Virus genome (UHGV): UHGV-2031204
Source of the DNA: a virus
Direction: 5' to 3' (one strand)
DNA length: 64,000 nt
Of the stretch, positions 148 to 42,630 are shown in pieces; the first letter of the stretch is position 1; every line of letters begins with the position of its first letter. Made by a program: the position numbers and the translations under genes. The notes under the pieces are model-generated. The model worked only from the letters and a program-made list of their open reading frames with translations. It did no database searches and had not been told where the DNA came from.

Positions 148-3100
148 ATGGCTAAAGCGGTAAAGAAAATTCGTTTACACGATTTACGTCCATACACCGG
201 GGATATAGGTGAAGGCGTTTTACTTTTTTCGAAAGACGAAAAAGATTATAAGTTACCCGTCCGCGAAATTGTTGCGGATATTGACACTGTCAGAAACGCA
301 GTTGCTGATGCACAAACAGCTGCAGCCAAATCGCAACAGTCTGCAACAGAAGCTACGCAAGCAAAAAATTTAGCAGAAACCGCGAAGCAACAAACTGACA
401 CGTTAGCTTCTACAGTTAGTGAGCAAGCGGGAACCGTTGCCACTAAAACTGCTGAGGTTAACAAAAAACACGCTGAAGTGTTGGCAGCGAAAACTGCCGT
501 AGATACTGTTTCACAATCAGTAAATGAGAAGGCTCAAGCTGTCGCTACAAGCGAACAATCGGTGACGGCTACAGCGGCTGATGTAACTAAGAAAGCAGAA
601 ACGGTTACGCAACAGGCCGGGCAAGTTCAACAAACCGCTACCAGTATCGCAGATACCGCAGCTTCAGTTGAGGCCAGTAAAGGTGCAGTGGAGAAGATTG
701 CTGCACAGGTCACGAAAGATAAGGAAAGTTCAGAAGGTGCAGCAACACGATCGGAATCAGCCGCTTTGCGTGCGGAGAAAATCGCTGCACAGGGTTTAGT
801 TGACGCTAGTACGACCGGTAAAGGTATCGTTAAACTTAACAATACCCTGACTAGCGAATCCGTGACTGAGGCTGCCACACCATCCACGGTTAAACAGCTG
901 AATGACGAATTACAGTTAAAAGCCAATAAACATTCGCCGAATTTTACGGGTAAACCGTCATCCCCAACACCCCCGAAGGACTCGAACGACACGAGCATCT
1001 CCACAACGGCCTGGGTGCGTGACGCGATTGCAGAACTGGTTGGTTCTTCACCCGAGACGTTAAACACCTTAGCGGAATTAGCTGAGGCGTTAGGTAATGA
1101 CCCTAACTTCGCAACAACGATTACTGAGGAACTTGCGCAGAAACAACCTCTCAGTCCGTTACTCACCGCTATTGCCGCAGTCACCACAGCGGCAAACAAA
1201 CTCATGTATTTCACCGGCAGTAATAAAGTCGGATTAACGGATTTTACAGAAACGGCCAGATCCTTGTTAGCGAAAGGGTCAACTGCGGATATCATCAATT
1301 TCTTGGGATTAAGAGCCACCGTAGATAAAGCGAATGGTGCGTTACAGAAGAACTCTAACGGCGCTGATATCCCAGATAAAGAAACGTTTGCTCGCAACAT
1401 CGGTCTATCTCCTGACACCTATCTGCGTTTCCGTGGCGAAATGCCTGTAGATGCTGATATTAACACATTTGCTCCAGATGCTAATTACACAGGAACGTGG
1501 GCTAAGTCGACATCAACCAATGCGTCGATGGCAAAACACTTCCCAGAAGACGGCGCAGTCGGTTATCTGGAAGTGTATAAAGCGGGCAACTACAGCGGCG
1601 CGCAACGTTTTACCTGTCGTAATGGTAACGTGTACAACCGTATGTTGTCAGGTGCGTGGAACGGAACTAATGGACCCTGGTCACCGTGGAGAATGGTAAC
1701 TACTGGTGTTCGTCCACTGTCTACCGCTATAGACTTGAACTCTCTGGGTGGCGCTGAGCATATGGGTAACTGGCGGAACTCGTCCAGTTCGTTAGCGGTG
1801 TTCGACCGACATTACCCCGAAGAAGGCGGTGGTGCGCAAGGCGTACTAGAAGTAATGGAAGGTGGTCTTTACGGACGGTTGCAGCGATACACTACGCGTC
1901 GTGGTACAATGTATGTCCGTGGTTTGACTGCAACGTGGGATTCATCAAACCCGCAATGGGAAGATTGGATTCAGGTTGGTTATCAGACTGACGGTGCTTT
2001 CTTTAAAGCCAATTTTAACGATCTCGTTAAACCAGGACGTTTCAGTGTCACTGGTGAAGCAACTAATGGTCCACTTACCGGTTCTTCTGGTGAAACCATA
2101 TTAGGCGTTTGTGAAGTTACCTTACGCTTAGACGGTACAGGGGTCGAACAGAATTATACTACATACGGTACGGGTGTAGAAACTAAAGGTCGTAAATTCC
2201 AACGTATCCGTACGGGTAACGCTTGGAGTGATTGGCGTGAGATTTTCACATCGTATTCGCTTCCGTTAGTATTAGGGGTTGGCGGTGAGCGTGCGAATGT
2301 TGATCCTTTAGACTGGCAAACCTATGACTTTAAACCAGGTGAGTTAATCTGTACGCCACTTAACACCATGAAAAACATTCCTGCGGGAATGGATTGGGGT
2401 GTTATTGACGGTAACTTAATTAGCATCCTGGTTGGACCATCAGATGGTGCATCCTCGGGTCGGAGCATGTTGGTTTGGCGTAGTACGGTGTCTACTGCCA
2501 ACTATCGATTCTTTGCCGTTCGCCTTGCAGGTAATCCGGGTAATCGTACTATTACTCCTCGACAGATGCCTGTATTGACCGCAGCACACACCTGGGCAGA
2601 AAAACAGACCTTTGCAAAAGGGTTAGCAGGTGAGTTAACAGGCAACGCTTCAACCGCCACTAAATTAAAGACGGCGCGTAGAATTGGTGGGGTCGCCTTC
2701 GATGGTAGCGGCGACGTTAACCTCCCAGGTGTTAACCAACAAGGTAATCAAAACACCACGGGTAACGCCGGTACAGCCACTAAACTTCAAACCGCTAGAA
2801 ATATTAACGGTGTGAGGTTCGATGGTTCTGCTGACATCAATATCAACACCTTGGTGGGTCGTGGTCGGGTTACCGCACTAACCGGTTCAAACAAAGGTAC
2901 GCCTGGTATTCAGATGTACGAAGTTTACAATAACGGCTATCCGTACGCTTATGGTAACTTACTCCATTTGGGTGGTGCTGCTGCGCTAGGCGAAGGCGAG
3001 TTGTTAATTGGTTGGTCGGGCACGAGTGGTGCGCACGCGCCAGTTTATATTCGTAGTCGACGTGATACGGCAGATGCGCCGTGGTCAGATTGGGCACAAG

Positions 3101-4770
3101 TTTATACTACACGTGACAGTATCCCTGGCGTAAATACCACAGGTAATCAGGACACTACTGGCAATGCCGCTACCGCGACGAAACTGAAAACCGCTCGCAG
3201 AATCGGCGGCGTTACCTTTGACGGTACTGGGGATATCAATTTACCGGGGGTTAACCAAGCCGGTAACCAGAATACGTCAGGTAATGCTGCAACAGCGACT
3301 AAACTCCAAACTGCTCGAAGTATCGGTGGTGTGGCTTTTGATGGTACTAAAGACATCAGTTTACCTGGGGTAAACCAAACTGGGAATCAGTCAACTACGG
3401 GGAACGCGGCCACTGCAACGAAGTTGCAGACAGCGCGTACCATTAATGGTATTGCTTTCGATGGCACGAAAAATATTGAACTGACCCCAAGAGCCATAGG
3501 CACGATTAACTCAACAACCATGTCTTTTAATGGTGGTGCCGGATGGTTCAAGCTGGCAACTGTAACTATGCCACAAGCCAGTTCCGTGGTTTACATAAGC
3601 ATGATTGGTGGCGCAGGGTTTAACGTTGGCTCCCCGCAGCAAGCTGGCATTTCTGAGCTGGTACTGCGTGCTGGAAATGGTAACCCAAAAGGTATTACTG
3701 GCGCATTATGGCGACGGACATCGGTTGGATTTACTAATTTTGCATGGGTGAATACATCTGGTGACACCTATGACATTTATGTAGAAATAGGTAATTACGC
3801 CACAGGGGTTAATATTCAGTGGGATTACACCAGTAATGCAAACGTAACAATCCACACAACACCAACTTATACAGCAGATAAACCAGCTGGCCTGACTGAT
3901 GGAACGGTATATGTCGTTTACAGTTCACACATTAAACCTACGGCGGGTGATGTTGGGGCGTTGCCATTATCCGGCGGCCAATTGAATGGAGCTTTGGGTA
4001 TTGGAACCGCCAATGCTTTAGGTGGGAACTCCATAGTTTTAGGGGATAATGACACCGGCCTTAAGCAGAACGGGGATGGCGTTCTAGATGTTTACGCCAA
4101 TAATGCTCACGTTTTACGCTTTACGAGTGGGGCTGTTCAAAGCAATAAACCTCTCAACGTTACTGGGGATATAAGAACCAATACTTGGGTTTATGCAAAT
4201 AGATATTCTATTAACAGCAACTCAGGTTCTTGGATTAGCATGAGAGACCATAACGTTATTTTTGGTCTTAATGCGGTAGGAACTAGTTCTGCTCAGGCAT
4301 TGTTAAGACAAGACCATGCTGATAGGAAATATTTTGTTGGTGGTTTAGGTAACAGTCAATTCGGCTTTTACATGATAAACAACTCACGTACTGATAATGG
4401 CACCGATGCCAATGCTTATTTGCAAAATGACGGTACTTGGGTTTGTGGTGGGAACGGTAACTTTAACGACGTTTATATACGTTCAGACGCCCGGCTGAAA
4501 AGTAATTTCTCTCCAATAACTAATGCATTGGAGAAGGTAAAGGAATTGTCAGGTTTAATATACGACAAAAAGGAGAACTTTAAATCCACTAATGTTCATC
4601 GTGAGGCTGGTGTTGTAGCGCAGACCTTACAAAAAGTGTTACCTGAGGCAGTTTCTACTTATAAAGACGCTAATGGTGAGGACGTTTTGACGGTCTCTAA
4701 TTCTGCTCAAATAGCTTTACTTATTGAGGCAATAAAGGAGTTGGCGGAGATAATTGAGACCAAGTTATAA
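148..4770 (+). CDS. Long tail fibre protein (distal-subunit-like) with tandem fibre repeats and C-terminal S74 intramolecular chaperone
   Basis: 1540 aa; Ala/Thr/Gln-rich N-terminal shaft; five tandem ~35-aa repeats TGNAATATKLxTAR.I.G..FDG..DI.L; C-terminal SDARLKSN…NALEKV…ALLIEAIKEL matches the S74 autoproteolytic chaperone signature. Confidence 0.85.
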   Translation: MAKAVKKIRLHDLRPYTGDIGEGVLLFSKDEKDYKLPVREIVADIDTVRNAVADAQTAAAKSQQSATEATQAKNLAETAKQQTDTLASTVSEQAGTVATKTAEVNKKHAEVLAAKTAVDTVSQSVNEKAQAVATSEQSVTATAADVTKKAETVTQQAGQVQQTATSIADTAASVEASKGAVEKIAAQVTKDKESSEGAATRSESAALRAEKIAAQGLVDASTTGKGIVKLNNTLTSESVTEAATPSTVKQLNDELQLKANKHSPNFTGKPSSPTPPKDSNDTSISTTAWVRDAIAELVGSSPETLNTLAELAEALGNDPNFATTITEELAQKQPLSPLLTAIAAVTTAANKLMYFTGSNKVGLTDFTETARSLLAKGSTADIINFLGLRATVDKANGALQKNSNGADIPDKETFARNIGLSPDTYLRFRGEMPVDADINTFAPDANYTGTWAKSTSTNASMAKHFPEDGAVGYLEVYKAGNYSGAQRFTCRNGNVYNRMLSGAWNGTNGPWSPWRMVTTGVRPLSTAIDLNSLGGAEHMGNWRNSSSSLAVFDRHYPEEGGGAQGVLEVMEGGLYGRLQRYTTRRGTMYVRGLTATWDSSNPQWEDWIQVGYQTDGAFFKANFNDLVKPGRFSVTGEATNGPLTGSSGETILGVCEVTLRLDGTGVEQNYTTYGTGVETKGRKFQRIRTGNAWSDWREIFTSYSLPLVLGVGGERANVDPLDWQTYDFKPGELICTPLNTMKNIPAGMDWGVIDGNLISILVGPSDGASSGRSMLVWRSTVSTANYRFFAVRLAGNPGNRTITPRQMPVLTAAHTWAEKQTFAKGLAGELTGNASTATKLKTARRIGGVAFDGSGDVNLPGVNQQGNQNTTGNAGTATKLQTARNINGVRFDGSADININTLVGRGRVTALTGSNKGTPGIQMYEVYNNGYPYAYGNLLHLGGAAALGEGELLIGWSGTSGAHAPVYIRSRRDTADAPWSDWAQVYTTRDSIPGVNTTGNQDTTGNAATATKLKTARRIGGVTFDGTGDINLPGVNQAGNQNTSGNAATATKLQTARSIGGVAFDGTKDISLPGVNQTGNQSTTGNAATATKLQTARTINGIAFDGTKNIELTPRAIGTINSTTMSFNGGAGWFKLATVTMPQASSVVYISMIGGAGFNVGSPQQAGISELVLRAGNGNPKGITGALWRRTSVGFTNFAWVNTSGDTYDIYVEIGNYATGVNIQWDYTSNANVTIHTTPTYTADKPAGLTDGTVYVVYSSHIKPTAGDVGALPLSGGQLNGALGIGTANALGGNSIVLGDNDTGLKQNGDGVLDVYANNAHVLRFTSGAVQSNKPLNVTGDIRTNTWVYANRYSINSNSGSWISMRDHNVIFGLNAVGTSSAQALLRQDHADRKYFVGGLGNSQFGFYMINNSRTDNGTDANAYLQNDGTWVCGGNGNFNDVYIRSDARLKSNFSPITNALEKVKELSGLIYDKKENFKSTNVHREAGVVAQTLQKVLPEAVSTYKDANGEDVLTVSNSAQIALLIEAIKELAEIIETKL

Positions 4771-4796: not shown

Positions 4797-4825
4797 ACTC
4801 ACAAGTACGTTATAAGGTGGTTATT

Positions 4826-5608
4826 TTGTCTGTATCAGCGACTCCCGGATGGATTGGTTCTTCAGCAAAAGCTGAAGCTGGTAATGGTTGGATGTCTGGC
4901 GCGATGCGCACACTTGGTGTGCCGGTCCCAGGCTGGATGTCGCAATTGGCGGGAAAATCAAAAGAGGCTCAGTATTCGATCGGGGCTAATCACAATTACA
5001 ATAAAGATACGCTTATTAACTATTTACGTTCCATAGGCTCTACTGCTGTCGTTGTGACCATTACAGGGGATTTAGTGTCTTATAGTAGCGGGGTTCCTTG
5101 TTTAGAGTTCCCTAGCAATCTTCCAAATTCGTATATTACCCTCATCATCAATCCTGGGGTTACAGTATACGGCAGAGGAGGCAACGGCGGTTCTAACTCA
5201 CCAGGCGGTGCAGGTGGAACCGCAATACAGAACGGAATAGGAAACAGACTGCGTATAACCAACCGTGGCGCTATTGCCGGAGGCGGTGGCGGCGGTGGCG
5301 GCGGTAACAGGGGTAGACTAATATTTGGTGGTGGCGGTGGTCGCCCATTCGGTGCTGGTGGGTCTTCCTCTCATATGAGTTCCGGTGCGGCTGCTGGTAC
5401 TATTTCCGCTCCTGGTAGAGGATCTGTTGGTGAGGGGTCTCTTAGTGCATATACAGGCGGTTCGGGTGGTAATGTCGGTGCTGGTGGAGGAAGATGTAAT
5501 ACTCATGGTAACGGTACAGAATATAACGGCGGGGCAGCTGGTGCTGCTGTTACTGGTAATGCGCCAAGATGGGACGCAGTAGGTGCAATATACGGTTCAC
5601 GTGTTTAA
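4826..5608 (+). CDS. T2-type gp38-like tail-fibre tip adhesin with polyglycine motifs
   Basis: GWIGSSAKAEAGNGWMS…GANHNYNKDTLINYLR…ITITGDLVSYS…CLEFPS…GGTAIQNGIGNRLRITNRGAIAGGGGGGGGG…GGGGGRPFGAGG resembles T2/T6-type gp38 (recalled, not searched). Start taken at TTG 4826 (RBS AAGGTGG 5 nt upstream); track start GTG 4817 is possible. Confidence 0.8.
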   Translation: MSVSATPGWIGSSAKAEAGNGWMSGAMRTLGVPVPGWMSQLAGKSKEAQYSIGANHNYNKDTLINYLRSIGSTAVVVTITGDLVSYSSGVPCLEFPSNLPNSYITLIINPGVTVYGRGGNGGSNSPGGAGGTAIQNGIGNRLRITNRGAIAGGGGGGGGGNRGRLIFGGGGGRPFGAGGSSSHMSSGAAAGTISAPGRGSVGEGSLSAYTGGSGGNVGAGGGRCNTHGNGTEYNGGAAGAAVTGNAPRWDAVGAIYGSRV

Positions 5609-5625: not shown

Positions 5626-6129
5626 ATGGGGGTAGCGTCAGGATGGGTCGGATCTTCAGCTAGGAATGAAACTGGCCAACAATGGATGAGCGCTGCGGGT
5701 AGTAAATTAGGATTGGGTAGACCTTTTATGATGAGTCAAATGGTGGGACGATCTATGGGCTGTAAAATTGCAACCGCTGCATATAGCGATTCTTTAGGTA
5801 AGAAATGGGGCGCAGTAGGACCAAGCTGGCCGTTAAACCAGAAAAATCAGGGAACCATTCAAAACGCGGGTAACTGCGGGGTGGGAACTTTAGTAGGTAT
5901 TGAGTTACAGTTAACAACGATAGTTGCCAACGCAAAGCCTACTTTAGCGGTTTACTTACAAGGAGGCAGAGCCTCTAACATTACCGTAAATTTAGGTGGT
6001 AACACCTGCGCGCTGACCTATCAGCAGGTTATTAACGGACAGCATTATTACTGGACTAATAACATCAGCGCTGCGTTCCAAAACGTGATGAAATCAACCG
6101 GTACACTGAGAGATTTCAAAATTAGTTAA
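5626..6129 (+). CDS. gp38-like paralog: same N-terminal domain, unrelated non-glycine-rich C-terminal domain
   Basis: MGVASGWVGSSARNETGQQWMSAAG aligns with the N-terminus of 4826..5608; strong RBS AAGGAGGG; C-terminal 100 aa lack polyglycine tracts. Confidence 0.65.
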   Translation: MGVASGWVGSSARNETGQQWMSAAGSKLGLGRPFMMSQMVGRSMGCKIATAAYSDSLGKKWGAVGPSWPLNQKNQGTIQNAGNCGVGTLVGIELQLTTIVANAKPTLAVYLQGGRASNITVNLGGNTCALTYQQVINGQHYYWTNNISAAFQNVMKSTGTLRDFKIS

Positions 6130-8151: not shown

Positions 8152-8771
8152 TGGCTGAACTGGTAGGAAAGGTACGCGTTCACGAACTACCGACACTTTC
8201 AGATGACGTCACAGGTGTAGTCGTCTTAGCGTCTAAAGAACAAACTGAATACCAACTCCCGATTGAGAACTTAGGGGGTGGTGAGGTTACAGTGAGTCCG
8301 TCGGCGAATAACATCCTTAAGTCTAACAGTGATGGGTTGTTTGTTAATGGTGCACATCCGATTGTACCAAAAATGGATGCAAAAACCGTATCGGGAAATA
8401 TGGTAGTAGAAAAAACGTTGACGGGTGGTGCGGTAATCTGCAAAACAACGGTTGACGTTAATAACAGGCTGGGTGTTACGCAATTATCAGGGGTATCAAT
8501 TTATAGCCAGTGTCTGTTGGAAAATAAATTGGTTTACCTGGCAGCAGATGGTGGTATTATTGATGCGTACTTCTACGTTAGTGGTACAAAAACCACAGCG
8601 AGTACAATAACCCACACCATTCGTGTTGTTTTAGCGAAGATACCCTCTAAAGTTATCGATATCACCGATTTGTCTGAAACCGAAGTACAATACGAGAATA
8701 GTAATTTACCTGTTAAGATCGTTATTAAACATCTTGCAGGGACAACACTTTCTCAGAACGGAATGAAATAA
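8151..8771 (+). CDS. Short fibre-like protein sharing the N-terminal anchor domain of the 1540-aa fibre
   Basis: MAELVGKVRVHELPTLSDDVTGVVVLASKEQTEYQLPI aligns with MAKAVKKIRLHDLRPYTGDIGEGVLLFSKDEKDYKLPV of ORF 148..4770; ATG overlaps the upstream stop, RBS GGAGGT. Confidence 0.6.
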   Translation: MAELVGKVRVHELPTLSDDVTGVVVLASKEQTEYQLPIENLGGGEVTVSPSANNILKSNSDGLFVNGAHPIVPKMDAKTVSGNMVVEKTLTGGAVICKTTVDVNNRLGVTQLSGVSIYSQCLLENKLVYLAADGGIIDAYFYVSGTKTTASTITHTIRVVLAKIPSKVIDITDLSETEVQYENSNLPVKIVIKHLAGTTLSQNGMK

Positions 8772-28773: not shown

Positions 28774-28813
28774 GGCCACTCTCCTTAATCCGAGACGTCC
28801 TTGTCTCGTGGCG

Positions 28814-34091: not shown

Positions 34092-37000
34092 CTAAGTACG
34101 ATCCCCTAACTGCTTCCCGTTAAGTTCTCGTTTCAGTACAGCCAAAATCCACTTCCACGCTTTACTCGTGATGTGGTACGGATTGCGTTTCTCCATTAAG
34201 AACTGACTTTCGCCGCTACGGAGTTCGAAGCTCTGCGCATTGAGTTGGTCTTGACGAACACCGTTCTCGTCAGTGACATCTAACGAACAGGTAAAGTTAA
34301 GCTCGTAGCCTTCAGGATTATTACCCGGTGGTTCTAAGACAATATAAATGTCCTGCCCTACACGTTGGTCCTTTGGCGTAAGGGTAACTGCTTTACCTGT
34401 GTCCGCGTTGGTCGAAAGCGCAAACGGTACGCTATCGATAGCTGATACATACGCGTCCTTCCCAGCATCACCGATAATCACCTTACCCGGCCAGTTACAC
34501 TTCACCGTTCCTGTCACTTTTGCAACACGGTACTGCTGTTTATCAGCACCTTGTGCAAAGCGTAAAATGAGTTTATGCCGATACCGGTTTGCGGCAACTT
34601 TGGATGTACTCCACTCATTGTTCCAGGAGGCATGAAGTTCACCTTTCTTGGCCATCAAAGCACCACGAGACAGCTTACGTGGGAAGAATTGTGCCGGAAG
34701 TTGCCCTTCGTGGGAAATCGCTACACTCCCTTGTCCGGTTGGAAGTGCTATTGTTTCCGTAGGGCAATAATTTAACTCGTACACGTGTGTTGTAGGATCG
34801 ATCAATTTCTGATAGTAATCACCGTCCTTACTGTCCGCTAACCAACCAACGGAAGAATCCGTATACGATTCAAACAGTGAACGTAAATAGTGATACTTAT
34901 CGATATCGATGTTGCCCGTTTTTGGATCGATCAGTGCATGGTTAATAGTGAGGAAACACTTCTCACTCAAACCATTAAACGCCAGCCCCACACCGTCACC
35001 GGTAAAATAGTCTACCAGGTCAAATGGAAGCGTCATTTCTATTTGTCGCAGGTTGATAGTCGTTGAACCAAACTGCGAAAAAGATAGCGCTAAACGAAGT
35101 ACACGAGTATTAACATTATAACGATAACGAATCATCCCACGCGGCGCATGGTTCGCGGAGATCTTATCACCGTTTGCACCCCACCCAATTAAATCGAGTA
35201 TTTCGGCGTTTGCTACTTCACCATTAAACAAAACGTCTTTAGTCGTGACTTCAACTGACGTTTCCCTTCCGGCATCCATCAACATCGAACCGTTATTCAA
35301 CTCGAAGCTCTTGTGCCAAACTTCAGAAGTCGAACCAGCACCTACACCCACCTTACAAGTTTTACTAGTAAGGTTAATACGCACATAACGGCGTCCCACT
35401 GTACCGCCCTGCGAGCTTGCACACAAAATAAGATCAGGTGCCGCAGACAGTGCCTTGGTCCCTCCAATGTCATCAACATCGAAAACGAATGAACCTTCGA
35501 ACGTTGGTGCGTTATTTTCCTTCGGGTTAAATGGCGTAAACCAACAATAAGGCGTCGCGCCCTCGGTTGAGAAAATCAACTCTAAGTCAGATTTAACATT
35601 TAATCCGTGGGAATAAGAAAAAAGACCGCGACTTAAGGTACAGAGCGTTCCACCGCTTCCGCTACCTAACGTTTTTCGATATATTAAAGCGCGGGGTTCT
35701 GGGATAGCACGGTTTAATAACGGCAACCGTGGGTTATCCGTTAACGCCCAGTCTACAGAACTGAGTCCGTGCGCTTTGCGTGTGTCAATATGTTCACTAA
35801 CCTCGGTACTTTTCCCGAAATCAAACGTGGTTTCAAAACTCACGGTTTTATTCGAGTAAGATTCACCGGCAACAATATCAACGTAGCCAATATATCCGCG
35901 CTCAGGGTCAACTGCAATACTCTGAATTGGCTCAGTACGCGAATACAGAGAGCCTGTGAGCATGTTAACGTACAGATAATGACGAATGCCTACGTGTGTT
36001 GTAACGAACTCTTGGAGAAGCTCTACGTGCGTTTCAGGACCACTGAAATAAACGGGGTAGTCACCGTCGTAAATTTCGAATTGCACCGCTGCGGATTTAG
36101 CCGTGTCGCTACACTCAGCTTTAACCGCTACGGTGTAGTTTTCAACGTCTGCTGATGTTTCATACACTGCAACAAGCGGAGACTGGCCTGTGGCTGCCTG
36201 GATACCGTTAATGTAAACTGTAACCGGGCCACCCCCTGCGGCATAAACCCAAAGCTTCGGCTGGCGTGCTCTTACCCGCGTTTTTGCCAACACAGTAACA
36301 ACTGACTGGTCACCCATCTGTGAGGCAGTTTTACCTACCGGAACAGATTGGAAACCCATTAGTGGTGGTTCTTCAATACCTGTCCAGCTAATGCCCTTAC
36401 CAGCACTCACTTTCCCCGTAGGCCAAGTCGTCTCAATTTGGTTGTTCGGTGAGAACCAGTTAAACATCGGTGTAGTTTGCAGGTCAATCGAACCTGTAAC
36501 GGCGCTATCAGCTTTCGCGCCGTTCAGCAAATAGAAATATTTCAAATCTTGAACGGAGATTGCCGTACCCTGGCTATTAAAGCGCCAGTCTGCGCCTTTT
36601 ACCGCAGCGAAATCCGTTACCGACCCTTCTTTCGCGTTTGCAATCGCCGCAGCAACCACATCTAAACGCGCCGAAAGTTCTTTTAAAATGTTCGGCACCA
36701 CTGCACGGTTTTCAACCAAACCGTTCTGGTTAGTTGCGTAACGACCGATACCGTAAACGGATTGCGAGGCTTTATAAATGCCTAGTTCCGACCAATCGTG
36801 GTGGTGGCCTGCATCCGCTAAGCCGCTAAGTGCCGCATTTAACTCGGTAGACAACGGCTTGTCAACGTCTGCGGTGTTATCCGCTTGCCCTAACCCCAGA
36901 TCAGCTTTCGTGATTGTCCTGGAGCCGTCGTTCATCGGCTTACCGTTAATCATGGTCGTTTTAGCCACATACCCCGATAGGTCGGTCGAGTATGGTGCTA

Positions 37001-38297
37001 ACGAAGCCGGAGTTGCAGCAACCCCAGTCGTTTCTGTACCTTTACCTGTTTTAAGTTTAGCGACGCCTTTTTCGGCGGTTGTCGCTTTTGTTGGGTCGAT
37101 AGTCCCCACGATAGGGTCGGCGCGAGAACCTTTACCGGTAAAGCTAATCCCATTACGGCCTTCAATGTACACCTTCGAGTCATCAGGGTCGCCACCGCCA
37201 CCAGAACCCGCATCTGGATCTTGTTGGTATTCCATCAATGTCGTGGTAGTCAGTAACGGGTTACCGTTCAGGGTGAGTTTGTTCATCCCTAAAGCATCGC
37301 CTGTTGACTCGATGCGTAATGTGTTTTTACCGGCACGCCAATTAATGTAACGTCCTGCACCTGTGCCTTCCAGATGTCCTACCGCTAATACCACAGAACC
37401 GTTGGATTTTAACGTAAAACCATCGTTGGCAAAAATGATTTCTGACTCACCGTTTTTCGAACGGAACTGTGCGCGGTTTCCTGACACCGTACAGTTAAAC
37501 ACGCCCCGTACTTCCGAAGAAATCCAGTGAGAGATATACGTGTCGATAACCGACTGCGGTAAACGAAACGCTTTCAGCTCATCCGTCAGTGCTTTCAACT
37601 TTAACCCGTACGCCATAAAGGTGTCGGGGGTTTTCAAGTTAACAGGATGCGCGTTAATCTGCGCGGATGTGGTTTCGTGCGGGTTCTTCGCTGCGATGTG
37701 TGCCGGGTAGTTAAATGCTTCGATTTCTTTACCCAACGCAGTCACTAACGCTTTAACTTCAGCTAATTTGTCTTTAATTAACTGGTTAGCGTCGTCGGTT
37801 TTCAATTCAATATCGTGAACTGCCGACGCTAAATATTTTTTGTTCAGCAAATCCGCCCAGGACGTTGCTGCTGGCGTCGCTGGATATAACGATGGTCTAC
37901 CGTCTAATAACAACCAGTCAGCACTGACTGGGTTATTCAAATATTTCACCAGTTCATCAAGAATATCAACGAACGGGTCGTAGAACGTACCACCGAGCAT
38001 TTGTCCTTCAAAGGTTACGATGCCTTTGATGGATGGGTTGATAAGGTGTACCCCACAATACACGTTGGCTGCTACCGAGTCATCCAGTTCCGTCAGCTGA
38101 TATTGCAGTTCGTAGTCCACCCCACGACTCAGTGGGGTGGTTGAACCTGGTTGTCTGACGACCAAATCTTCAAAGAACGGGCGGTGGTCTAAAATCACCA
38201 CCCGATCGTTGTTGTTCTCTGACCCGATGATACGCTCCTCTAAGAAGTGATTCTCGGCTTTCGTCCCCCGAGGATCGTAAGGATACGCTTTCATCAA
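34092..38297 (-). CDS. Giant fibre-like structural protein (1401 aa)
   Basis: N-terminal VVILDHRPFFEDLVVRQ…GVDYELQYQ anchor motif; hairpin at 34012-34040 between this gene and the next. Confidence 0.7.
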   Translation of the reverse strand: MMKAYPYDPRGTKAENHFLEERIIGSENNNDRVVILDHRPFFEDLVVRQPGSTTPLSRGVDYELQYQLTELDDSVAANVYCGVHLINPSIKGIVTFEGQMLGGTFYDPFVDILDELVKYLNNPVSADWLLLDGRPSLYPATPAATSWADLLNKKYLASAVHDIELKTDDANQLIKDKLAEVKALVTALGKEIEAFNYPAHIAAKNPHETTSAQINAHPVNLKTPDTFMAYGLKLKALTDELKAFRLPQSVIDTYISHWISSEVRGVFNCTVSGNRAQFRSKNGESEIIFANDGFTLKSNGSVVLAVGHLEGTGAGRYINWRAGKNTLRIESTGDALGMNKLTLNGNPLLTTTTLMEYQQDPDAGSGGGGDPDDSKVYIEGRNGISFTGKGSRADPIVGTIDPTKATTAEKGVAKLKTGKGTETTGVAATPASLAPYSTDLSGYVAKTTMINGKPMNDGSRTITKADLGLGQADNTADVDKPLSTELNAALSGLADAGHHHDWSELGIYKASQSVYGIGRYATNQNGLVENRAVVPNILKELSARLDVVAAAIANAKEGSVTDFAAVKGADWRFNSQGTAISVQDLKYFYLLNGAKADSAVTGSIDLQTTPMFNWFSPNNQIETTWPTGKVSAGKGISWTGIEEPPLMGFQSVPVGKTASQMGDQSVVTVLAKTRVRARQPKLWVYAAGGGPVTVYINGIQAATGQSPLVAVYETSADVENYTVAVKAECSDTAKSAAVQFEIYDGDYPVYFSGPETHVELLQEFVTTHVGIRHYLYVNMLTGSLYSRTEPIQSIAVDPERGYIGYVDIVAGESYSNKTVSFETTFDFGKSTEVSEHIDTRKAHGLSSVDWALTDNPRLPLLNRAIPEPRALIYRKTLGSGSGGTLCTLSRGLFSYSHGLNVKSDLELIFSTEGATPYCWFTPFNPKENNAPTFEGSFVFDVDDIGGTKALSAAPDLILCASSQGGTVGRRYVRINLTSKTCKVGVGAGSTSEVWHKSFELNNGSMLMDAGRETSVEVTTKDVLFNGEVANAEILDLIGWGANGDKISANHAPRGMIRYRYNVNTRVLRLALSFSQFGSTTINLRQIEMTLPFDLVDYFTGDGVGLAFNGLSEKCFLTINHALIDPKTGNIDIDKYHYLRSLFESYTDSSVGWLADSKDGDYYQKLIDPTTHVYELNYCPTETIALPTGQGSVAISHEGQLPAQFFPRKLSRGALMAKKGELHASWNNEWSTSKVAANRYRHKLILRFAQGADKQQYRVAKVTGTVKCNWPGKVIIGDAGKDAYVSAIDSVPFALSTNADTGKAVTLTPKDQRVGQDIYIVLEPPGNNPEGYELNFTCSLDVTDENGVRQDQLNAQSFELRSGESQFLMEKRNPYHITSKAWKWILAVLKRELNGKQLGDRT

Positions 38298-38307
38298 AAA
38301 AATCTCC

Positions 38308-41300
38308 TTAATCGCGAATGATTACCGCCTGCACTTTATTGTTGGTGTCGATAAACGACATTACGCGCTCCTTGTTAAGATAAGGAGGTATCGGTAACGC
38401 AGCGTAATCCGCCAGGTTGTTATTAAATTCAGTTGCCACTAACGCATTAAGCGTTTCGGGGTCTGAACTGACACCGGTCAAATCCATAACGCGCACACGA
38501 TTTAATGAGGAATAGTTGCTAATATAGTCTAACAACGTACCATAGACTTTATTCGCGGTTGCGCTATCTGCCGTAGAACGGATGTTGGCACGAACCTCAT
38601 CCTCATAAAGTCCCCCTAAACCGTAGTAAATAGGGGTATACGGATCGTTAACGATAGGTGCGATATTGAACCCTGTTAAACGGTCAGTTAGAGGGATTTT
38701 CTGCGTAGCTCCCCCTGCTGCCGTGCAGCTTACGTATTTATCTGTCGCAGATAAAAACACCACGATGGTATACGTAGTGCCCGCTAAGGTCAATGTTGCG
38801 TTAAACGTTATTGCGTTATTTGCAGCACGGGTGTGGGTAAACGTTACGTCAGGTTGTAACGTATTCCACGGCGCAGGCGTAACACGCTTCGTTGGTGTGA
38901 AACCTAACACTACCGATTTCCCGCTACCGAAGTTCAAACCGAACCCTGCGTAACAATATTCACCGTTGCTGTCAGTTAAACGATAACCACGAGTGATAAG
39001 TAACGACAACCGCATAAACTCGCCGTCGGTGTTTTTCCAACAACCTAAAACAGTTTCTAACACCGTGCCAGTTTTTGCGTTGCTTTCTGTTTCCCAACTT
39101 ACCCGCATTCCTGCGTTCTTAAAAGCTGGGAACGTGTTGTGGATAAACCCGTGTAGGTTATCGCTTACTCCTTTCGCGTCAAAAATCCACTTGGATGCAA
39201 GCTGGTCGTATTTCACCCCGTCTAAAGCTTTATACTGCCCCCCGGCAACATAACGCCAATCTGCTTCACCGCGTACTACTGCCTGGAGTCCAGAAGCCCA
39301 GCAAGGCGCGCCTACCGTTAAGTTAGCTAACCCAAGCGCTGCACGTGACGCGGTGCGTTGAATGTGTGCGTTGTCATCGGCCTTATGATCTTTCAGTTCA
39401 CGGAAATCACCCAACCGTGTGACATTACGCATCTCCGTAACGAACACCTCAGAAATGTCGTTAACACCAATCAACCCTACACGCGTCATGGTATCCGTTT
39501 CAGCCTGACTGTAGCTGTCGTGGACAATATACTTCGCTTTGTTGTCAACAATATCAACAAAAATCCCTGCGTAGATTTCTGTATTCAATTTCGGAAAACG
39601 TTCACTGACGTTAATCGTCATCAACGGAACGTCGTATGTTTCACCACCGATAAAATACGTTGAAGCTGGAAGCGTGACCAGAATTTTGTCTTTGACCGTA
39701 AGGTCTATTAAGTCGTTACCAGACTCACCAAAACGTATAATGTCAAGACGTGCCTCCGAGTCAACACCGCTGACAGCGCGCTCCAATTTTTCAATCTGAG
39801 AAGTCTGCGCCATTACCACACTCCCATCGAGTGCTAAAGTCGCATCATCCACATCCAGACCAAATTTAATCAGACCACGTTTCGCGGTGGTTGCGTTTCC
39901 AGTACCAAAAGCGGTAAACGGGTGTTGGTGAACTTTAGGCGAGTATTTATCTAACTCCGCACGTTGTGCTGTAGAAATCGGTAAATCGACATCGGGCGTA
40001 TTCGCAACATTACCTAAACCAAAGGTAATCTTATCGATAGTAACCGAGCTGGTAAGTTGCATGTCGTTAATGTACGATTTAACTGCAACTAACTTACCGG
40101 TGAACTCCGCATCGAGTTTTTCAATCAGTGCTGGCGTTGCTGCAAGGTTTTCAGCGGTACCGAACTCATCGGTCAACTGCCAAGCTGCCAGAGTTGTTGT
40201 ATCGGTCGCGGTAGGAAGAATAAAGGTCGCTACGAACGGCGAGGCTTTTATCCCGCTACCGGTGATCGTAACCGTTGTTGTCGAGTTTGCGTAGAATAAA
40301 CCTGTACCACCTGCGGTATTGCCTGGCAGATACGGGGCTACGGTGGTGGGGTCTAAGAGTTTTTTACCACGCCACAACAATCCTCGGTCATCGGGGTATA
40401 GCACAAGCTGGTTAGTACCTGCTTGGAACGTTACGGGGTTGTTACCCACGTTAACATCAGTTGAACCTTGGCCAATAAACTTAATGGATTTCGGATCAAC
40501 AACAAACTGAGCGCCTAAACGTGTCTCGTCAACAACATCCGGTGCTTTCTTAATGGTAACCGTGTTACCTTTGTTTTGCGAACTAATGGTAACGGCGTCG
40601 GCAACATTATTGATCAGCGATTTAAAGTGGTGCTGATTCTCTAATGCTTCTAACGCAGCGTCCATGTTATTGAAGTTGATCCGACCGCTATACGTTTTAC
40701 TGTTTACGGTAATAACGACGTCAAACACATTCCCTGTACGCTTCAGTTGAAAACGTAGCGTAAAATCCCCATCCGGTATTGCCGGGTTAGGAGCTTGTGA
40801 AATATACCGAACTGCCGGTACCGGACTACCGTAACCGTGCAACGCCAGTTCGATAGTAAGAGTACCGGACCAGACTTCACCGGTAATCTCTACGTACTTA
40901 CCGGAGTTACTACCAGGATTTTCGTAGAAACGTAAACCAACCCTACCGACCGCTTCATTACCAGACGCTGTTTTACGTCCAGTAACAATAAAGTCAATAT
41001 CTTGCAGGTTGGCAGGCACCGCATTAAAGTTAGCACTGAAACCGCTTTTCGCTCCTGTATAACGAAGCGCACCGTGATATCTGTGACCACTACTAACATA
41101 GCTTTCGCTAAAATAAGGACTCACGTATTTCGACATCGAGACCGGATCAACTTCCGTCGTGAACGAAGTAAAACCCGGAAGTGTGGTAATCGTGCCGTTA
41201 ACGTTCTTGCTCGCCGATTCACGAAGCAGTTTTTTCTGTGCGGTTAACGTTGCTTGTGTTGGGTACTTAGCATTAACGTAATCCGTTAACTGCTGTTTCG

Positions 41301-42630
41301 TTTTCCCGTAAGCTAACGCGGCATCCGACGCAATACCATTCAGCTCTAACGCACGGATCGGACCCCACGTATCGGTGTGCGGGTTGTCCTTACGTGTAAC
41401 GTGTTCGTGTGCAGGCGCGTTACGATACAGCTGCTCAACTAACTGATGGTATTTAACTATTAACTGGTAAACATCGTTATCGACGTCAGGTTCTGGTGCG
41501 CCGGGTAAAGAACGAATTTGAATATAATCATTTTCGGCCGCATACCAGTTTAGATTAATGTTCGTTTTAAACTTCAACCATTTAGCAACATCCGTTTTCG
41601 AATACCCTGCCGAGAACTCATCAGGCGGCGTATCGACGTTGAATGTGTAATCCATGGTCTGTTTATTTGTTTTTACTACGATGACGTAAACACCGTTTCC
41701 GGGTTGACGGGTTACACTAAAATCGATATCGTTTTTTAACTCATCGTCAGTTAAACCGTTGATTAACGTATAATCGTAGTTTGTTGAACCGCTACCAATA
41801 GCGACCGTTAAGACCAGTGAGATTTTGCGCTGTTTTAGCTGCAGCCGTAGAATACTTGCACCGCCGTTAGCATAACAGAGCATCCAATCGATCTGTTCGT
41901 TTGGATTCAATTTCGTCATGTCTGGCAGAATAGCAGGAATTCTGTGTTTCACTGACAGGACGTAGTCGTTAAAGGTTGCAGTTTTATAACTCAAGCTATA
42001 ACGATGACGGGTAGTGTTGTAGGTGAAGCCACCTTTATTGTCGTATACGGCATACTGCTCGGAAGTGATAACCTTGCTATTAGCACGGTATTCCAAATCC
42101 AGGGTATTGCGTGCGATGGGGTTAAGCCGACTCACGACTTCCCCTAACGAATCGCCTAATCCAGCAATAGCCTGCATTAATTCCAGTTCACCTTTCCAAT
42201 TCTCCCAATCGAACTGGATATCAACCGGCGGAAAGTAAACGTCCCCGATGACGGTGTCCCACTGACACGCAGACGGGTATTTATCTTTATTGAGTTCGCG
42301 TTCTGCGGTAATCTGTTGTTGGGTAGCCTGACCGCAACCAACGGCGTGGTAATCTACCGTAAAATTCGATTTGTATTTGTCATTAACAATCCAAATCATC
42401 CCGTGAATGAGATAGGCTGTGCGCAACATACCGGTCTCGTACGGGTGTGTAATAATGTAATCGTCGCCTAAGGTCAGTGTTTTGCCGCCGCTCTTGACCA
42501 CCAGGGATGTGGTGAAAAAAGGGGCGTGGGCAGGTACCAACATTCGGTATTTCGTACCAATGACGGCGACCGCTTCACCGGTTATTTTATTCCCCGGTTT
42601 TTTGAAGTGTGGGTCTAAGACGACAGCCAT
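38308..42630 (-). CDS. Giant fibre-like structural protein (1440 aa)
   Basis: N-terminal MLVPAHAPFFTTSLVVK…GDDYIITHPYE anchor motif; first gene of the minus-strand operon. Confidence 0.7.
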   Translation of the reverse strand: MAVVLDPHFKKPGNKITGEAVAVIGTKYRMLVPAHAPFFTTSLVVKSGGKTLTLGDDYIITHPYETGMLRTAYLIHGMIWIVNDKYKSNFTVDYHAVGCGQATQQQITAERELNKDKYPSACQWDTVIGDVYFPPVDIQFDWENWKGELELMQAIAGLGDSLGEVVSRLNPIARNTLDLEYRANSKVITSEQYAVYDNKGGFTYNTTRHRYSLSYKTATFNDYVLSVKHRIPAILPDMTKLNPNEQIDWMLCYANGGASILRLQLKQRKISLVLTVAIGSGSTNYDYTLINGLTDDELKNDIDFSVTRQPGNGVYVIVVKTNKQTMDYTFNVDTPPDEFSAGYSKTDVAKWLKFKTNINLNWYAAENDYIQIRSLPGAPEPDVDNDVYQLIVKYHQLVEQLYRNAPAHEHVTRKDNPHTDTWGPIRALELNGIASDAALAYGKTKQQLTDYVNAKYPTQATLTAQKKLLRESASKNVNGTITTLPGFTSFTTEVDPVSMSKYVSPYFSESYVSSGHRYHGALRYTGAKSGFSANFNAVPANLQDIDFIVTGRKTASGNEAVGRVGLRFYENPGSNSGKYVEITGEVWSGTLTIELALHGYGSPVPAVRYISQAPNPAIPDGDFTLRFQLKRTGNVFDVVITVNSKTYSGRINFNNMDAALEALENQHHFKSLINNVADAVTISSQNKGNTVTIKKAPDVVDETRLGAQFVVDPKSIKFIGQGSTDVNVGNNPVTFQAGTNQLVLYPDDRGLLWRGKKLLDPTTVAPYLPGNTAGGTGLFYANSTTTVTITGSGIKASPFVATFILPTATDTTTLAAWQLTDEFGTAENLAATPALIEKLDAEFTGKLVAVKSYINDMQLTSSVTIDKITFGLGNVANTPDVDLPISTAQRAELDKYSPKVHQHPFTAFGTGNATTAKRGLIKFGLDVDDATLALDGSVVMAQTSQIEKLERAVSGVDSEARLDIIRFGESGNDLIDLTVKDKILVTLPASTYFIGGETYDVPLMTINVSERFPKLNTEIYAGIFVDIVDNKAKYIVHDSYSQAETDTMTRVGLIGVNDISEVFVTEMRNVTRLGDFRELKDHKADDNAHIQRTASRAALGLANLTVGAPCWASGLQAVVRGEADWRYVAGGQYKALDGVKYDQLASKWIFDAKGVSDNLHGFIHNTFPAFKNAGMRVSWETESNAKTGTVLETVLGCWKNTDGEFMRLSLLITRGYRLTDSNGEYCYAGFGLNFGSGKSVVLGFTPTKRVTPAPWNTLQPDVTFTHTRAANNAITFNATLTLAGTTYTIVVFLSATDKYVSCTAAGGATQKIPLTDRLTGFNIAPIVNDPYTPIYYGLGGLYEDEVRANIRSTADSATANKVYGTLLDYISNYSSLNRVRVMDLTGVSSDPETLNALVATEFNNNLADYAALPIPPYLNKERVMSFIDTNNKVQAVIIRD

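What the first reader, a model, noticed from the sequence alone, without database searches (positions are those of the whole stretch)
148..42630. Two families of fibre N-terminal anchor domains imply several distinct fibre sets
The 1540-aa fibre and the 206-aa ORF at 8151 share one N-terminal ~45-aa domain (MA..V.K.R.H.L…G.V.L.SK.E.Y.LP). The four minus-strand proteins (399, 1727, 1401, 1440 aa) share a different one (P.F[FY]…YxLxY). Over 6000 codons of fibre proteins in total suggests a multi-fibre particle, and the shared N-termini are likely recombination points.
Basis: seen in the sequence. Interest (0 to 1): 0.5.

Follow-up and report, generated by a model that had tools for sequence, protein, structure and literature searches.

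The report
Two fibre anchor domains, jumbo phage
A giant gut phage related to Salmonella phage SPN3US carries two real, unrelated N-terminal attachment domains on its tail-fibre proteins: one is the already known phiKZ gp131-type baseplate-fibre anchor, and the other is a small undescribed 45-residue tag on swappable receptor-binding cassettes, so this is a well-documented example of ordinary modular fibre evolution.

Summary
Both similarities are real. An HMM built only from phiKZ gp131/133/134/135 N-termini finds exactly the four minus-strand proteins in the six-frame window (E 6e-26 to 4e-4). An HMM built only from SPN3US gp123 and Asesino gp140 finds exactly the 1540-aa fibre and the 206-aa ORF (E 5e-15, 2e-9).

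The four minus-strand proteins are orthologues of SPN3US gp167-170, which include its published "paralog family C". They lie next to a phiKZ gp130 homologue at 42699-43961. In phiKZ, cryo-EM shows six such N-domains plus a six-helix bundle docked under gp130, twelve fibres per baseplate. They therefore most likely co-assemble into one peripheral fibre type, not four sets.

The second domain ("N-A") is gapless, about 45 aa, always at residue 1, and confined to SPN3US-like phages. It is joined at residue 40-48 to unrelated C-terminal modules. It sits in a hypervariable locus: relatives carry one to three N-A genes, and deletion scars remain.

Verdict: observation confirmed, interpretation partly supported. 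"Anchor" and "module boundary" hold. "Several fibre sets" holds only as two anchoring systems. Family B is already known. N-A is a new member of a known kind. Interest is modest.

The parts
148..4770 (+). p1540: long tail fibre. N-A anchor domain (aa 1-46, nt 148-285), Ala/Gln-rich shaft, T-even/Mu-like distal part, C-terminal Peptidase_S74 intramolecular chaperone (aa 1446-1502).
   Evidence: N-A HMM E 4.9e-15. Pfam Phage_fiber_2 and Peptidase_S74. Many tail-fibre PHROGs. PDB Mu fibre S 5yvq E 4e-41 and S16 gp37 6f45.
4817..5608 (+). p263: T2/RB49-type gp38 adhesin (Gp38_N + GP38).
   Evidence: Pfam GP38 E 6e-69, Gp38_N 2.3e-11. 77-81% nt identity to gp38 of JSE/Phi1/RB49.
5626..6129 (+). p167: second adhesin-like protein with a Gp38_N attachment domain and a different C-terminus. 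92% identical in the sister phages.
   Evidence: Pfam Gp38_N E 2.9e-20. PHROG 1121 tail fiber adhesin..
6217..8151 (+). p644: fusion of a receptor-binding or enzymatic fibre C-terminal module (aa 1-475) with a DUF7941 domain (aa 480-644). Its stop overlaps the start of p206.
   Evidence: PHROG 13714/7032 C-terminal halves. 56% identity to the Stx2k prophage tail protein. Pfam DUF7941 52.3 bits against a cut-off of 27. DUF7941 is a standalone gene in L010, L011 and L013.
8151..8771 (+). p206: N-A anchor domain (aa 1-46, nt 8151-8288), flexible linker, C-terminal beta-sandwich (aa 72-200).
   Evidence: N-A HMM E 1.7e-9. PHROG 33169 C-terminal end. AF2 model with pLDDT about 90 for aa 72-200.
1..64 (+). 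3' part of a deletion scar: remnant of the last ~30 codons of a SPN3US gp124-like tail protein. The 5' part, a remnant of a gp123-like N-A start, lies just upstream of the window.
   Evidence: tblastn 58-61% over 18-19 aa. In the source contig the frame reads YQDLTIPDHESAELDITLTLEDD against SPN3US YRDLAIPDHTTASLDITFTIPDD, preceded by MTTQLRKTRLQKLDGFTG against gp123 MATVVKKKRLHELDSYDG.
27574..28779 (-). p399/401: short gp131-family member, orthologue of SPN3US gp167 and closest to phiKZ gp135. N-B beta domain aa 18-125, helices 160-204, long helix 223-361.
   Evidence: phiKZ HMM E 6.1e-26. BLASTP against gp135 4.7e-13, 77% identity to SPN3US gp167. AF2.
28814..33997 (-). p1727: long gp131-family member, orthologue of SPN3US gp168. 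N-B domain about aa 21-209 (nt ~33370-33937).
   Evidence: phiKZ HMM E 4.2e-4. PHROG 2163 E 1.7e-41. 48-56% identity to SPN3US and Asesino orthologues.
34092..38297 (-). p1401: long gp131-family member, orthologue of SPN3US gp169. N-B domain about aa 3-217.
   Evidence: phiKZ HMM E 2.8e-18. BLASTP against gp131 1.3e-8.
38308..42630 (-). p1440: long gp131-family member, orthologue of SPN3US gp170. N-B domain about aa 5-155. About 200-aa insertion at aa 495-700 (nt 40531-41148).
   Evidence: phiKZ HMM E 6.1e-14. BLASTP against gp131 1.7e-8. Sliding identity.
42699..43961 (+). p420: homologue of phiKZ gp130 and SPN3US gp171, the baseplate outer-periphery protein under which the gp131-type fibres dock. 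Transcribed divergently from the four paralogues, as in phiKZ.
   Evidence: BLASTP against phiKZ gp130 E 1.2e-11 over 416 aa, 77-81% identity to SPN3US and Asesino. phiKZ gene order. PMC13250141.

Best explanation
The window comes from a ~225-kb phiKZ-related jumbo phage of the SPN3US/Asesino group, found in human-gut and enterobacterial assemblies. It holds two separate receptor-binding loci, each with its own N-terminal attachment domain.

(B) 27574-43961 is the conserved baseplate-fibre module.
- One gp130-type platform protein (p420) lies next to four gp131-type paralogues.
- Shown: the first ~150-220 residues of each paralogue (beta domain plus helix) are homologous to phiKZ gp131/133/134/135.
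- Inferred from phiKZ cryo-EM: six such N-domains and a six-helix bundle dock under each gp130, giving twelve peripheral fibres. The four proteins would then be subunits of one hetero-oligomeric fibre type.
- The one short paralogue (p399) groups with phiKZ gp133-135 and the three long ones with gp131. My prediction is therefore 3 x p399 + p1440 + p1401 + p1727 per fibre base.
- The variable C-terminal parts would contact the host.

(A) 148-8771 is a hypervariable accessory locus.
- Shown: each receptor-binding protein starts with the same gapless ~45-aa N-A domain and continues with a module borrowed from other phages. Examples are a T-even/Mu-type long fibre with gp38 adhesins, a beta-sandwich, and, in sister phages, a SASA esterase and others.
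- Shown: relatives carry one to three such genes, whole cassettes are exchanged, and scars of deleted ones remain.
- Inferred: N-A plugs each protein into a common tail site, probably with help from the DUF7941 protein encoded just upstream.
For: Identity of the phage
- The window is identical over 18.8 kb to a 171-kb JGI contig.
- It shows ~74% nt identity to Asesino and SPN3US in conserved parts.

Family B
- The phiKZ-only HMM hits exactly four ORFs.
- BLASTP: p401 against gp135 4.7e-13; p1401 and p1440 against gp131 ~1e-8; p420 against gp130 1.2e-11.
- The same five-gene arrangement occurs in SPN3US, Asesino, phiKZ and an E. coli 222-kb element.
- SPN3US gp167-171 are all non-head virion proteins of similar abundance: SC/M 1.90, 1.08, 1.41, 1.00 and 0.74, against 0.93-1.29 for the 12-copy portal. 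gp167 is the highest.
- The phiKZ hexamer model and the count of 12 fibres come from PMC13250141.
- In the NJ tree the split 'short type + gp133-135 | long type + gp131' appears in 158 of 300 bootstraps. The four phiKZ paralogues are never monophyletic.
- The AF2 model of p401 has a confident beta domain followed by helices.

Family A
- A profile search of 1.84 billion representatives gives 19 hits at E <= 0.001. Eighteen start at residue 1 and end at residue 28-49. One (P0146, E 3.4e-5) matches internally at residues 257-276 and looks unrelated. One other weak hit (P0144, E 4.5e-6) has its best stretch at residues 67-78. Protein lengths range from 31 to 1494 aa.
- The C-termini are unrelated and match C-terminal parts of different PHROGs from residue 40-48 onward.
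- Sister loci L011 and L013 have swapped cassettes and two or three N-A genes.
- SPN3US-like genomes have one N-A gene.
- SPN3US gp123 (N-A) and gp124 are non-head virion proteins.
- Deletion scars are shown.
- DUF7941 and N-A identities co-vary across seven gene pairs (Spearman 0.71).
Against: - No structure or proteome exists for this phage.
- The phiKZ hetero-hexamer is called 'candidate' by its authors and rests on 4.5-6 A density with docked AlphaFold models.
- The SPN3US gp167 excess is only 1.3-1.9-fold, not 3-fold. Spectral counts are semi-quantitative.
- p1727 matches the phiKZ profile only weakly (E 4e-4). Its membership rests mainly on p1401 and PHROG 2163.
- The short/long split has only ~53% bootstrap support.
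- No PDB chain matches the N-B model (best Foldseek E 0.04) or the family profile, so fold-level confirmation failed.
- Nothing shows where N-A binds. The N-A part of the p206 model has only moderate confidence (pLDDT 60-76).
- DUF7941 is not next to every N-A gene (L013 273-aa gene).
- SPN3US gp122 (DUF7941) was not detected in wild-type virions (PMC5694885).
- The DUF7941/N-A co-variation could simply reflect co-transfer.
Confidence: 0.7

Rival explanations
1. One reading: each of the six proteins forms its own homotrimeric fibre. The four gp131-type paralogues would then compete for, or occupy, separate equivalent sites, for example two different trimers per six-domain docking site. The particle would carry four or more distinct baseplate fibre sets plus the N-A fibres.
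For: - Six N-domains per site (PMC13250141) is also compatible with two homotrimers.
- The three long paralogues have very different, fast-diverging C-terminal halves (16-40% identity to orthologues), as expected for independent receptor binders.
- Distant N-B homologues end in a Peptidase_S74 chaperone, typical of homotrimeric fibres.
- The SPN3US abundances do not discriminate between the two models.
Against: - The set of four is invariant in number, order and size class in all relatives examined, unlike the N-A locus, where independent fibres come and go.
- The phiKZ authors fit four different paralogues into one site.
- The short paralogue (399 aa: N-domain plus coiled coil only) has no obvious receptor-binding part.
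Confidence: 0.2
2. N-A is not a baseplate plug. It is the binding site for the DUF7941 protein encoded upstream, which acts as an adaptor or assembly chaperone, or it attaches the accessory proteins as branches onto another fibre. The p644 fusion (receptor-binding part + DUF7941) would then ride on p206 or p1540.
For: - A DUF7941 gene or domain immediately precedes the N-A gene in SPN3US, Asesino, both window positions, L010, L011 and L013 positions 1 and 3, often with overlapping stop and start codons.
- The two co-vary.
- At position 2 the exchanged DNA segment spans the DUF7941 3' end plus the whole N-A gene.
- Branched receptor-binding complexes are well known in other large phages (my own knowledge: CBA120, G7C, phi92).
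Against: - SPN3US gp122 was not found in wild-type virions, whereas gp123 was. This fits a chaperone but not a structural adaptor.
- The L013 273-aa N-A gene has no DUF7941 in front.
- The E. coli element keeps DUF7941 after losing p206.
- The co-variation is confounded by linkage.
Confidence: 0.25
3. The N-terminal resemblances are chance or compositional, for example generic start-of-gene bias.
For: The N-A region is short (45 aa) and pairwise identity is only 33-37%. The p1727 match to the phiKZ profile is weak (E 4e-4).
Against: Independent profiles pick out exactly the predicted ORFs and nothing else. 0 of 2000 shuffles reach the observed score. The N-A alignment of 18 members is gapless.
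Confidence: 0.01

Closest known systems
phiKZ gp131/gp133/gp134/gp135 fibre-base paralogues with gp130 (Sycheva 2012; structural atlas PMC13250141), corresponding to SPN3US 'paralog family C' gp168-170 (PMC5694885)
   Same: - The N-terminal domain is homologous.
- The gp130 homologue is divergently transcribed next door.
- There are four paralogues with conserved N-termini and divergent C-termini.
- The SPN3US orthologues are tail virion proteins.
   Different: - Here there are three long proteins (1400-1727 aa) plus one short one, whereas phiKZ has one long (771 aa) plus three short (~460 aa).
- No match to the gp131 beta-propeller was found.
- The SPN3US papers list only gp168-170 as paralogues. 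The 399-aa gp167 type also belongs by profile (6e-26).
- Assembly state is untested here.
SPN3US gp122-gp123-gp124 locus (PHROG 9017 'tail fiber protein', 156 aa)
   Same: The N-A domain is 52% (p1540) and 43% (p206) identical to gp123 residues 1-50. A DUF7941 gene lies upstream. The genomic position is the same.
   Different: The gp123 C-terminal domain and the 1005-aa gp124 are absent here and survive only as a scar. They are replaced by a 1540-aa fibre with gp38 adhesins and by a second DUF7941/N-A module.
Conserved N-terminal anchor with exchangeable receptor-binding modules in other phages: T7-like gp17, K1E/K1-5 adaptors, CBA120 TSP1-4, Klebsiella depolymerase systems (my own knowledge, not tested here)
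   Same: The logic is the same: a short conserved N-terminus fixes the protein to the tail, everything downstream is swapped horizontally, and several receptor-binding proteins sit on one particle.
   Different: There is no sequence relation. N-A is found only in SPN3US-like jumbo phages: 19 representative clusters in 1.84 billion. PHROG 9017 contains SPN3US gp123, but neither the N-A region of p1540 or p206 nor the 56-aa N-terminus alone matched any Pfam or PHROG model at the thresholds used.
T-even distal long tail fibre with gp38 adhesin (T2/S16/RB49 type)
   Same: The p1540 distal part and p263 match gp37/gp38 families. Window 4996-5610 (p263) is 77-81% identical at DNA level to gp38 of JSE/Phi1/RB49 (Krischvirus), and 3469-5572 is 82% identical to Escherichia phage CMS-2020a.
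   Different: The fibre is attached through the jumbo-phage N-A domain rather than a gp36/gp35/gp34 chain. It ends in a Peptidase_S74 chaperone and is followed by two Gp38_N proteins.

Membership tests
phiKZ gp131-type N-terminal fibre-base domain (SPN3US paralog family C) | Sequence homology of the N-terminal ~150-220 aa to phiKZ gp131/133/134/135 | tested here: met
   The phiKZ-only HMM gives p401 6.1e-26, p1401 2.8e-18, p1440 6.1e-14 and p1727 4.2e-4, with no other window ORF.
phiKZ gp131-type N-terminal fibre-base domain (SPN3US paralog family C) | Domain at the extreme N-terminus, followed by a helix able to form the six-helix bundle | tested here: met
   Matches start at residues 3-21. 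The AF2 model of p401 has a beta domain at 18-125 (pLDDT >90) and helices at 160-204 and 223-361. The helix is a prediction, and the bundle itself was not tested.
phiKZ gp131-type N-terminal fibre-base domain (SPN3US paralog family C) | Adjacent, divergently transcribed gp130-type platform gene | tested here: met
   p420 (42699-43961, +) against phiKZ gp130: E 1.2e-11 over 416 aa. The gene order matches phiKZ, SPN3US and Asesino.
phiKZ gp131-type N-terminal fibre-base domain (SPN3US paralog family C) | Protein present in the tail of the virion | not testable with these tools
   Only by proxy: SPN3US gp167-171 are non-head virion proteins (PMC5694885).
phiKZ gp131-type N-terminal fibre-base domain (SPN3US paralog family C) | Six N-domains of different paralogues assembled under gp130 (hetero-hexamer) | not testable with these tools
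   Known only for phiKZ at low resolution. No multimer prediction was available.
phiKZ gp131-type N-terminal fibre-base domain (SPN3US paralog family C) | Fold identity with a solved gp131-type N-domain | tested here: inconclusive
   No such chain is in the PDB copy. The best Foldseek E was 0.04, and the profile search found nothing relevant.
SPN3US gp123-type tail fibre protein (PHROG 9017) | N-terminal ~45-aa N-A domain | tested here: met
   An HMM from gp123 and Asesino gp140 gives p1540 4.9e-15 and p206 1.7e-9.
SPN3US gp123-type tail fibre protein (PHROG 9017) | gp123 C-terminal domain (aa ~60-156) followed by a gp124-type 1005-aa tail protein | tested here: not met
   tblastn matches end at residue 44-52. 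gp124 matches only a 19-aa remnant. The window proteins share the domain but are not members of this protein family.
T-even gp38 adhesin | Gp38_N attachment domain plus GP38 receptor-binding domain | tested here: met
   p263: GP38 E 6e-69 (232.6 bits, cut-off 25) and Gp38_N 2.3e-11. p167 has Gp38_N only.
DUF7941 (PF25613; SPN3US head 'paralog family B' candidates) | Pfam match above the gathering score | tested here: met
   p644 aa 482-620 scores 52.3 bits against a cut-off of 27. The upstream 188-aa protein scores 66.6 bits and SPN3US gp122 scores 65.3 bits.

The most novel reading that the evidence does not exclude
DUF7941 may be the cognate docking partner of the N-A domain, and therefore a general display scaffold for receptor-binding modules.
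- The family is known in SPN3US only as a 20-member set of head proteins of unknown function.
- Here one DUF7941 copy is fused directly behind a horizontally acquired receptor-binding or enzyme module (p644).
- Each DUF7941 copy co-varies with the N-A gene that follows it.

If true, part of the host-recognition apparatus of SPN3US-like jumbo phages would be built on a protein family so far assigned to the capsid. That would imply either capsid- or neck-borne receptor-binding proteins, or a tail role for some DUF7941 paralogues.
Probability: 0.12. Interest if true: 0.65.

Novelty: new member of a known kind. Interest (0 to 1): 0.3.

Why it matters
- It gives an explicit map of which parts of a jumbo phage's ~7,800 codons of fibre genes are fixed scaffold and which are exchangeable host-range modules. 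That map is useful for engineering the host range of SPN3US-like phages.
- It adds the 399-aa gp167 type to the gp131 family.
- It yields a testable stoichiometry for the SPN3US-type fibre base: three short subunits plus one each of the three long ones, mirroring phiKZ's three gp131 plus gp133, gp134 and gp135.
- It defines a small transplantable anchor (N-A, 45 aa) that nature has already fused to T-even-type fibres, esterases and lectin-like domains.

None of this overturns current understanding.

Tried and rejected
1. phiKZ gp145 as an N-A homologue. By eye the N-terminus looks similar, but Smith-Waterman z-scores were 0 to 5 and inconsistent, and an 18-sequence N-A HMM found nothing in phiKZ 122-189 kb. 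Rejected. phiKZ gp143 matches DUF7941 only below threshold (18.3 bits against 27), so that is left open.
2. Felixounavirus tblastn hits to the p1540 N-terminus (E 0.1-1). The match lies at the C-terminal end of a 176-aa early hypothetical protein. Treated as chance.
3. PDB sequence searches with p401, p1401, p1727, p1440, p206 and the p401 family profile found no relevant chains.
4. Foldseek of the p401 and p206 models against the PDB gave nothing with E <= 0.001. The weak top hits, podophage tail-fibre N-domains 8ck1 and 7ey9 at E 0.04-0.09, are not usable.
5. Pfam has no model for either anchor domain.
6. The N-domain junction as a recombination point in family B was not seen. Divergence is graded.
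7. A third N-A gene inside the window was not found.
8. The first attempt at a bootstrap tree timed out and the second crashed. The third succeeded.

Full report
**What the window is.** Megablast of 26000-44000 finds only SPN3US-like jumbo phages (Erwinia phages Asesino, Stratton and phiEaH2; Salmonella phage SPN3US and relatives), at about 74% identity over the most conserved tenth of the query. The 206-aa ORF is encoded, identical, on metagenome contigs of 160-225 kb from human gut samples, and the window matches one of them base for base over 18.8 kb. Close homologues of the ORF also occur in Salmonella, Shigella and E. coli assemblies. The window therefore comes from an uncultured enterobacterial jumbo phage of the phiKZ-related SPN3US/Asesino group.

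**Observation, family A.**
- The first 41 residues of the 1540-aa protein (148-4770) and the 206-aa protein (8151-8771) align without gaps at 36.6% identity.
- The Smith-Waterman score of 82 lies 14.8 standard deviations above shuffles, and none of 2000 shuffles reach it.
- An HMM built only from the N-termini of SPN3US gp123 and Asesino gp140 finds exactly these two ORFs among 1017 six-frame ORFs (E 4.9e-15 and 1.7e-9; next best 1.9).

I call this domain N-A.

**Observation, family B.**
- An HMM built only from residues 1-230 of phiKZ gp131, gp133, gp134 and gp135 finds exactly four window ORFs. These are 27574-28779 (6.1e-26), 34092-38297 (2.8e-18), 38308-42630 (6.1e-14) and 28814-33997 (4.2e-4).
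- All four match the N-terminal part of PHROG 2163.
It consists of a beta domain, a helix and an H..NPH..T..QV motif.

Both observations are confirmed.

**What family B is.**
- The four proteins are orthologues of SPN3US proteins of 400, 1727, 1376 and 1237 aa and of Asesino gp187-190, in the same order and orientation.
- The SPN3US papers name gp168, gp169 and gp170 (188, 149 and 135 kDa) "paralog family C". They relate them to phiKZ gp131 and find them absent from tailless particles (PMC5694885; PMC5105663).
- The plus-strand gene at 42699-43961 is the homologue of SPN3US gp171 and phiKZ gp130 (E 1.2e-11). As in phiKZ, it is transcribed divergently from the paralogue row.
- The 2026 cryo-EM atlas of phiKZ places fibre attachment sites beneath gp130. 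[quoted passage not shown] The authors interpret it as a candidate hetero-hexamer of gp131 x3 + gp133 + gp134 + gp135, with twelve fibres per baseplate (PMC13250141).

"N-terminal anchor" is therefore well founded for family B. The known precedent, however, is co-assembly of paralogues, not one fibre set per paralogue.

**Further evidence on family B.**
- The five-gene block is also present, unchanged in number and order, in a 222-kb circular element deposited as a plasmid of E. coli 98232.
- In SPN3US virions gp167, 168, 169, 170 and 171 are all non-head proteins. Their mass-normalised spectral counts are 1.90, 1.08, 1.41, 1.00 and 0.74, close to the 12-copy portal at 0.93-1.29.
- Bit scores and an NJ tree of the N-domains group the short 399-aa type with phiKZ gp133-135, and the three long types with gp131. 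This split appears in 158 of 300 bootstraps, and the four phiKZ paralogues never form a clade.

I infer that the split into a short and a long type predates the divergence of the two phage groups. phiKZ then multiplied the short type and the SPN3US group multiplied the long type. If the 3 + 3 composition is conserved, the fibre base here would be three copies of the 399-aa protein plus one each of the 1440-, 1401- and 1727-aa proteins. This is a prediction, not a result.

**Divergence pattern in family B.** Identity to the SPN3US and Asesino orthologues falls gradually from 70-86% in the first 100 residues to 16-40% at the C-terminus. There is a ~200-aa insertion in the 1440-aa protein (aa 495-700) and a locally replaced stretch at aa 201-400 relative to Asesino. 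That is the usual fibre gradient, and it shows no breakpoint at the end of the N-domain. Over longer evolutionary distance the N-domain is joined to other C-termini, including 480-700-aa proteins ending in Peptidase_S74 in other jumbo phages.

**Structure checks for family B.** An AlphaFold2 model of the 399/401-aa protein has a confident beta domain (aa 18-125) followed by helices. No solved structure matched it by fold or by profile. The gp131-type N-domains appear not to be in the PDB copy.

**What family A is.**
- A profile search of 1.84 billion cluster representatives finds only 19 proteins at E <= 0.001. Eighteen of them match from residue 1 to residue 28-49 of the protein. One weak hit (E 3.4e-5) is internal and looks unrelated. 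Protein lengths range from 31 to 1494 aa.
- Eighteen members align without a single gap.
- Downstream sequences are unrelated to each other. They include the gp123-type 110-aa domain, a beta-sandwich (p206), a SASA esterase (706 aa), a 710-aa protein, a 273-aa protein and the long fibre.
- In each case the downstream part matches the C-terminal portion of a different PHROG from residue 40-48 onward.
- The long fibre continues into T-even/Mu-like distal domains and a Peptidase_S74 chaperone. It is followed by a full gp38 adhesin and a second Gp38_N protein. Window 3469-5610 is 77-82% identical at DNA level to E. coli phages.
- SPN3US-like genomes have a single N-A gene, gp123. gp123 and the following gp124 are non-head virion proteins.

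**Comparison with sister phages.** Two sister contigs of about 226 kb share the locus.
- L011 carries a standalone 170-aa DUF7941 gene followed by the N-A-SASA esterase where the window has p644-p206.
- L013 carries three N-A genes of 1438, 273 and 709 aa.
- DNA identity between the window and L011 is 89-93% in the flanks. It drops to 75% within DUF7941, becomes unalignable from window 8065 to 8779, and resumes right after the p206 stop codon.
- In the E. coli 222-kb element p206 is gone. Only its last ~12 codons remain after DUF7941.
- Between the upstream DUF7941 gene and the start of p1540 lies a scar. It contains about 20 codons resembling the start of gp123, followed in another frame by about 30 codons resembling the end of gp124. 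The latter occupy window 1-64.

The lineage therefore lost a gp123-gp124 pair and gained other N-A proteins. Every protein that occupies this locus as a receptor binder carries N-A, which is the main argument that N-A is the common attachment element. Where it attaches is not known.

**DUF7941.**
- A DUF7941 gene or domain (PF25613) immediately precedes most N-A genes.
- In the window the second copy is fused behind a 475-aa module that is 56% identical to the C-terminus of an Stx2k prophage tail protein.
- In a Logan contig the same DUF7941 is a separate gene.
- DUF7941 and N-A identities co-vary across seven gene pairs (Spearman 0.71). Linkage alone could explain this.
- SPN3US gp122, its DUF7941 orthologue, is a candidate member of the head "paralog family B" and was not detected in wild-type virions.

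I treat a functional DUF7941/N-A partnership as a hypothesis.

**Verdict.** There are two anchoring systems, and N-A is a true module boundary with documented cassette turnover. The four family-B proteins are a fixed, already described paralogue set that most likely builds one hetero-oligomeric peripheral fibre. Family B is already known. N-A is an undescribed small domain that follows a familiar principle. Interest is modest (0.3).

Noticed in passing
window 1-64 (continues upstream: L007 1752-1913): Deletion scar between the upstream DUF7941 gene and p1540. It holds about 20 codons resembling the start of SPN3US gp123 (N-A), then in another frame about 30 codons resembling the C-terminal end of SPN3US gp124, ending in two stop codons. 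It is conserved at 90% nt identity in sister contig L013.
   Followed up: yes
window 6217-8151: p644 is an in-frame fusion of a horizontally shared fibre C-terminal module with a DUF7941 domain. The module is 56% identical to an Stx2k prophage tail protein and 52% to E. coli jumbo phage ph0011. In L010, L011 and L013 the DUF7941 is a standalone 170-171-aa gene.
   Followed up: partly
window 4817-6129: Two consecutive gp38-type proteins follow a fibre that ends in a Peptidase_S74 self-cleaving chaperone. p263 is a full T2/RB49-type adhesin. p167 has Gp38_N plus a different C-terminus and is 92% conserved in sister phages, while p263 is swapped. How a gp38 adhesin docks on an S74-processed tip is unclear.
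   Followed up: partly
L016 (NZ_CP173450.1, E. coli 98232, 221,873 bp circular) and NZ_CP134650.1 (Enterobacter ludwigii, 222,441 bp): Relatives of this jumbo phage (~83.5% nt identity) are deposited as complete circular 'plasmids' of clinical and wildlife isolates. p206 homologues also occur in Salmonella and Shigella assemblies on contigs up to 225 kb. This suggests a carrier state or pseudolysogeny, or phage carried along in cultures.
   Followed up: partly
L016 about 43816-44085: In the E. coli 222-kb element the p206 gene is deleted. Only its last ~12 codons (..AGTTLSQNGMK*) remain directly after the DUF7941 stop, and the 283-aa downstream gene is also missing.
   Followed up: yes
window 40531-41148 (aa 495-700 of the 1440-aa protein): An insertion of about 200 aa relative to the SPN3US and Asesino orthologues. 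Residues 201-400 are 70% identical to SPN3US but only 15-28% identical to Asesino, so the shaft is mosaic.
   Followed up: partly
window 16793-18152, next to 18217-18807: Two more DUF7941 paralogues (282 and 165 aa) lie directly upstream of a GH108 / PG_binding_3 endolysin. In phiKZ a weak DUF7941-like protein (gp143) also sits next to the endolysin gp144.
   Followed up: no
window 27574-28779: The 399/401-aa protein (SPN3US gp167 type) is not listed in the published SPN3US paralog family C. It is nevertheless the strongest window match to the phiKZ gp131-135 N-domain profile (6e-26), and its orthologue is the most abundant of the four in SPN3US virions.
   Followed up: yes
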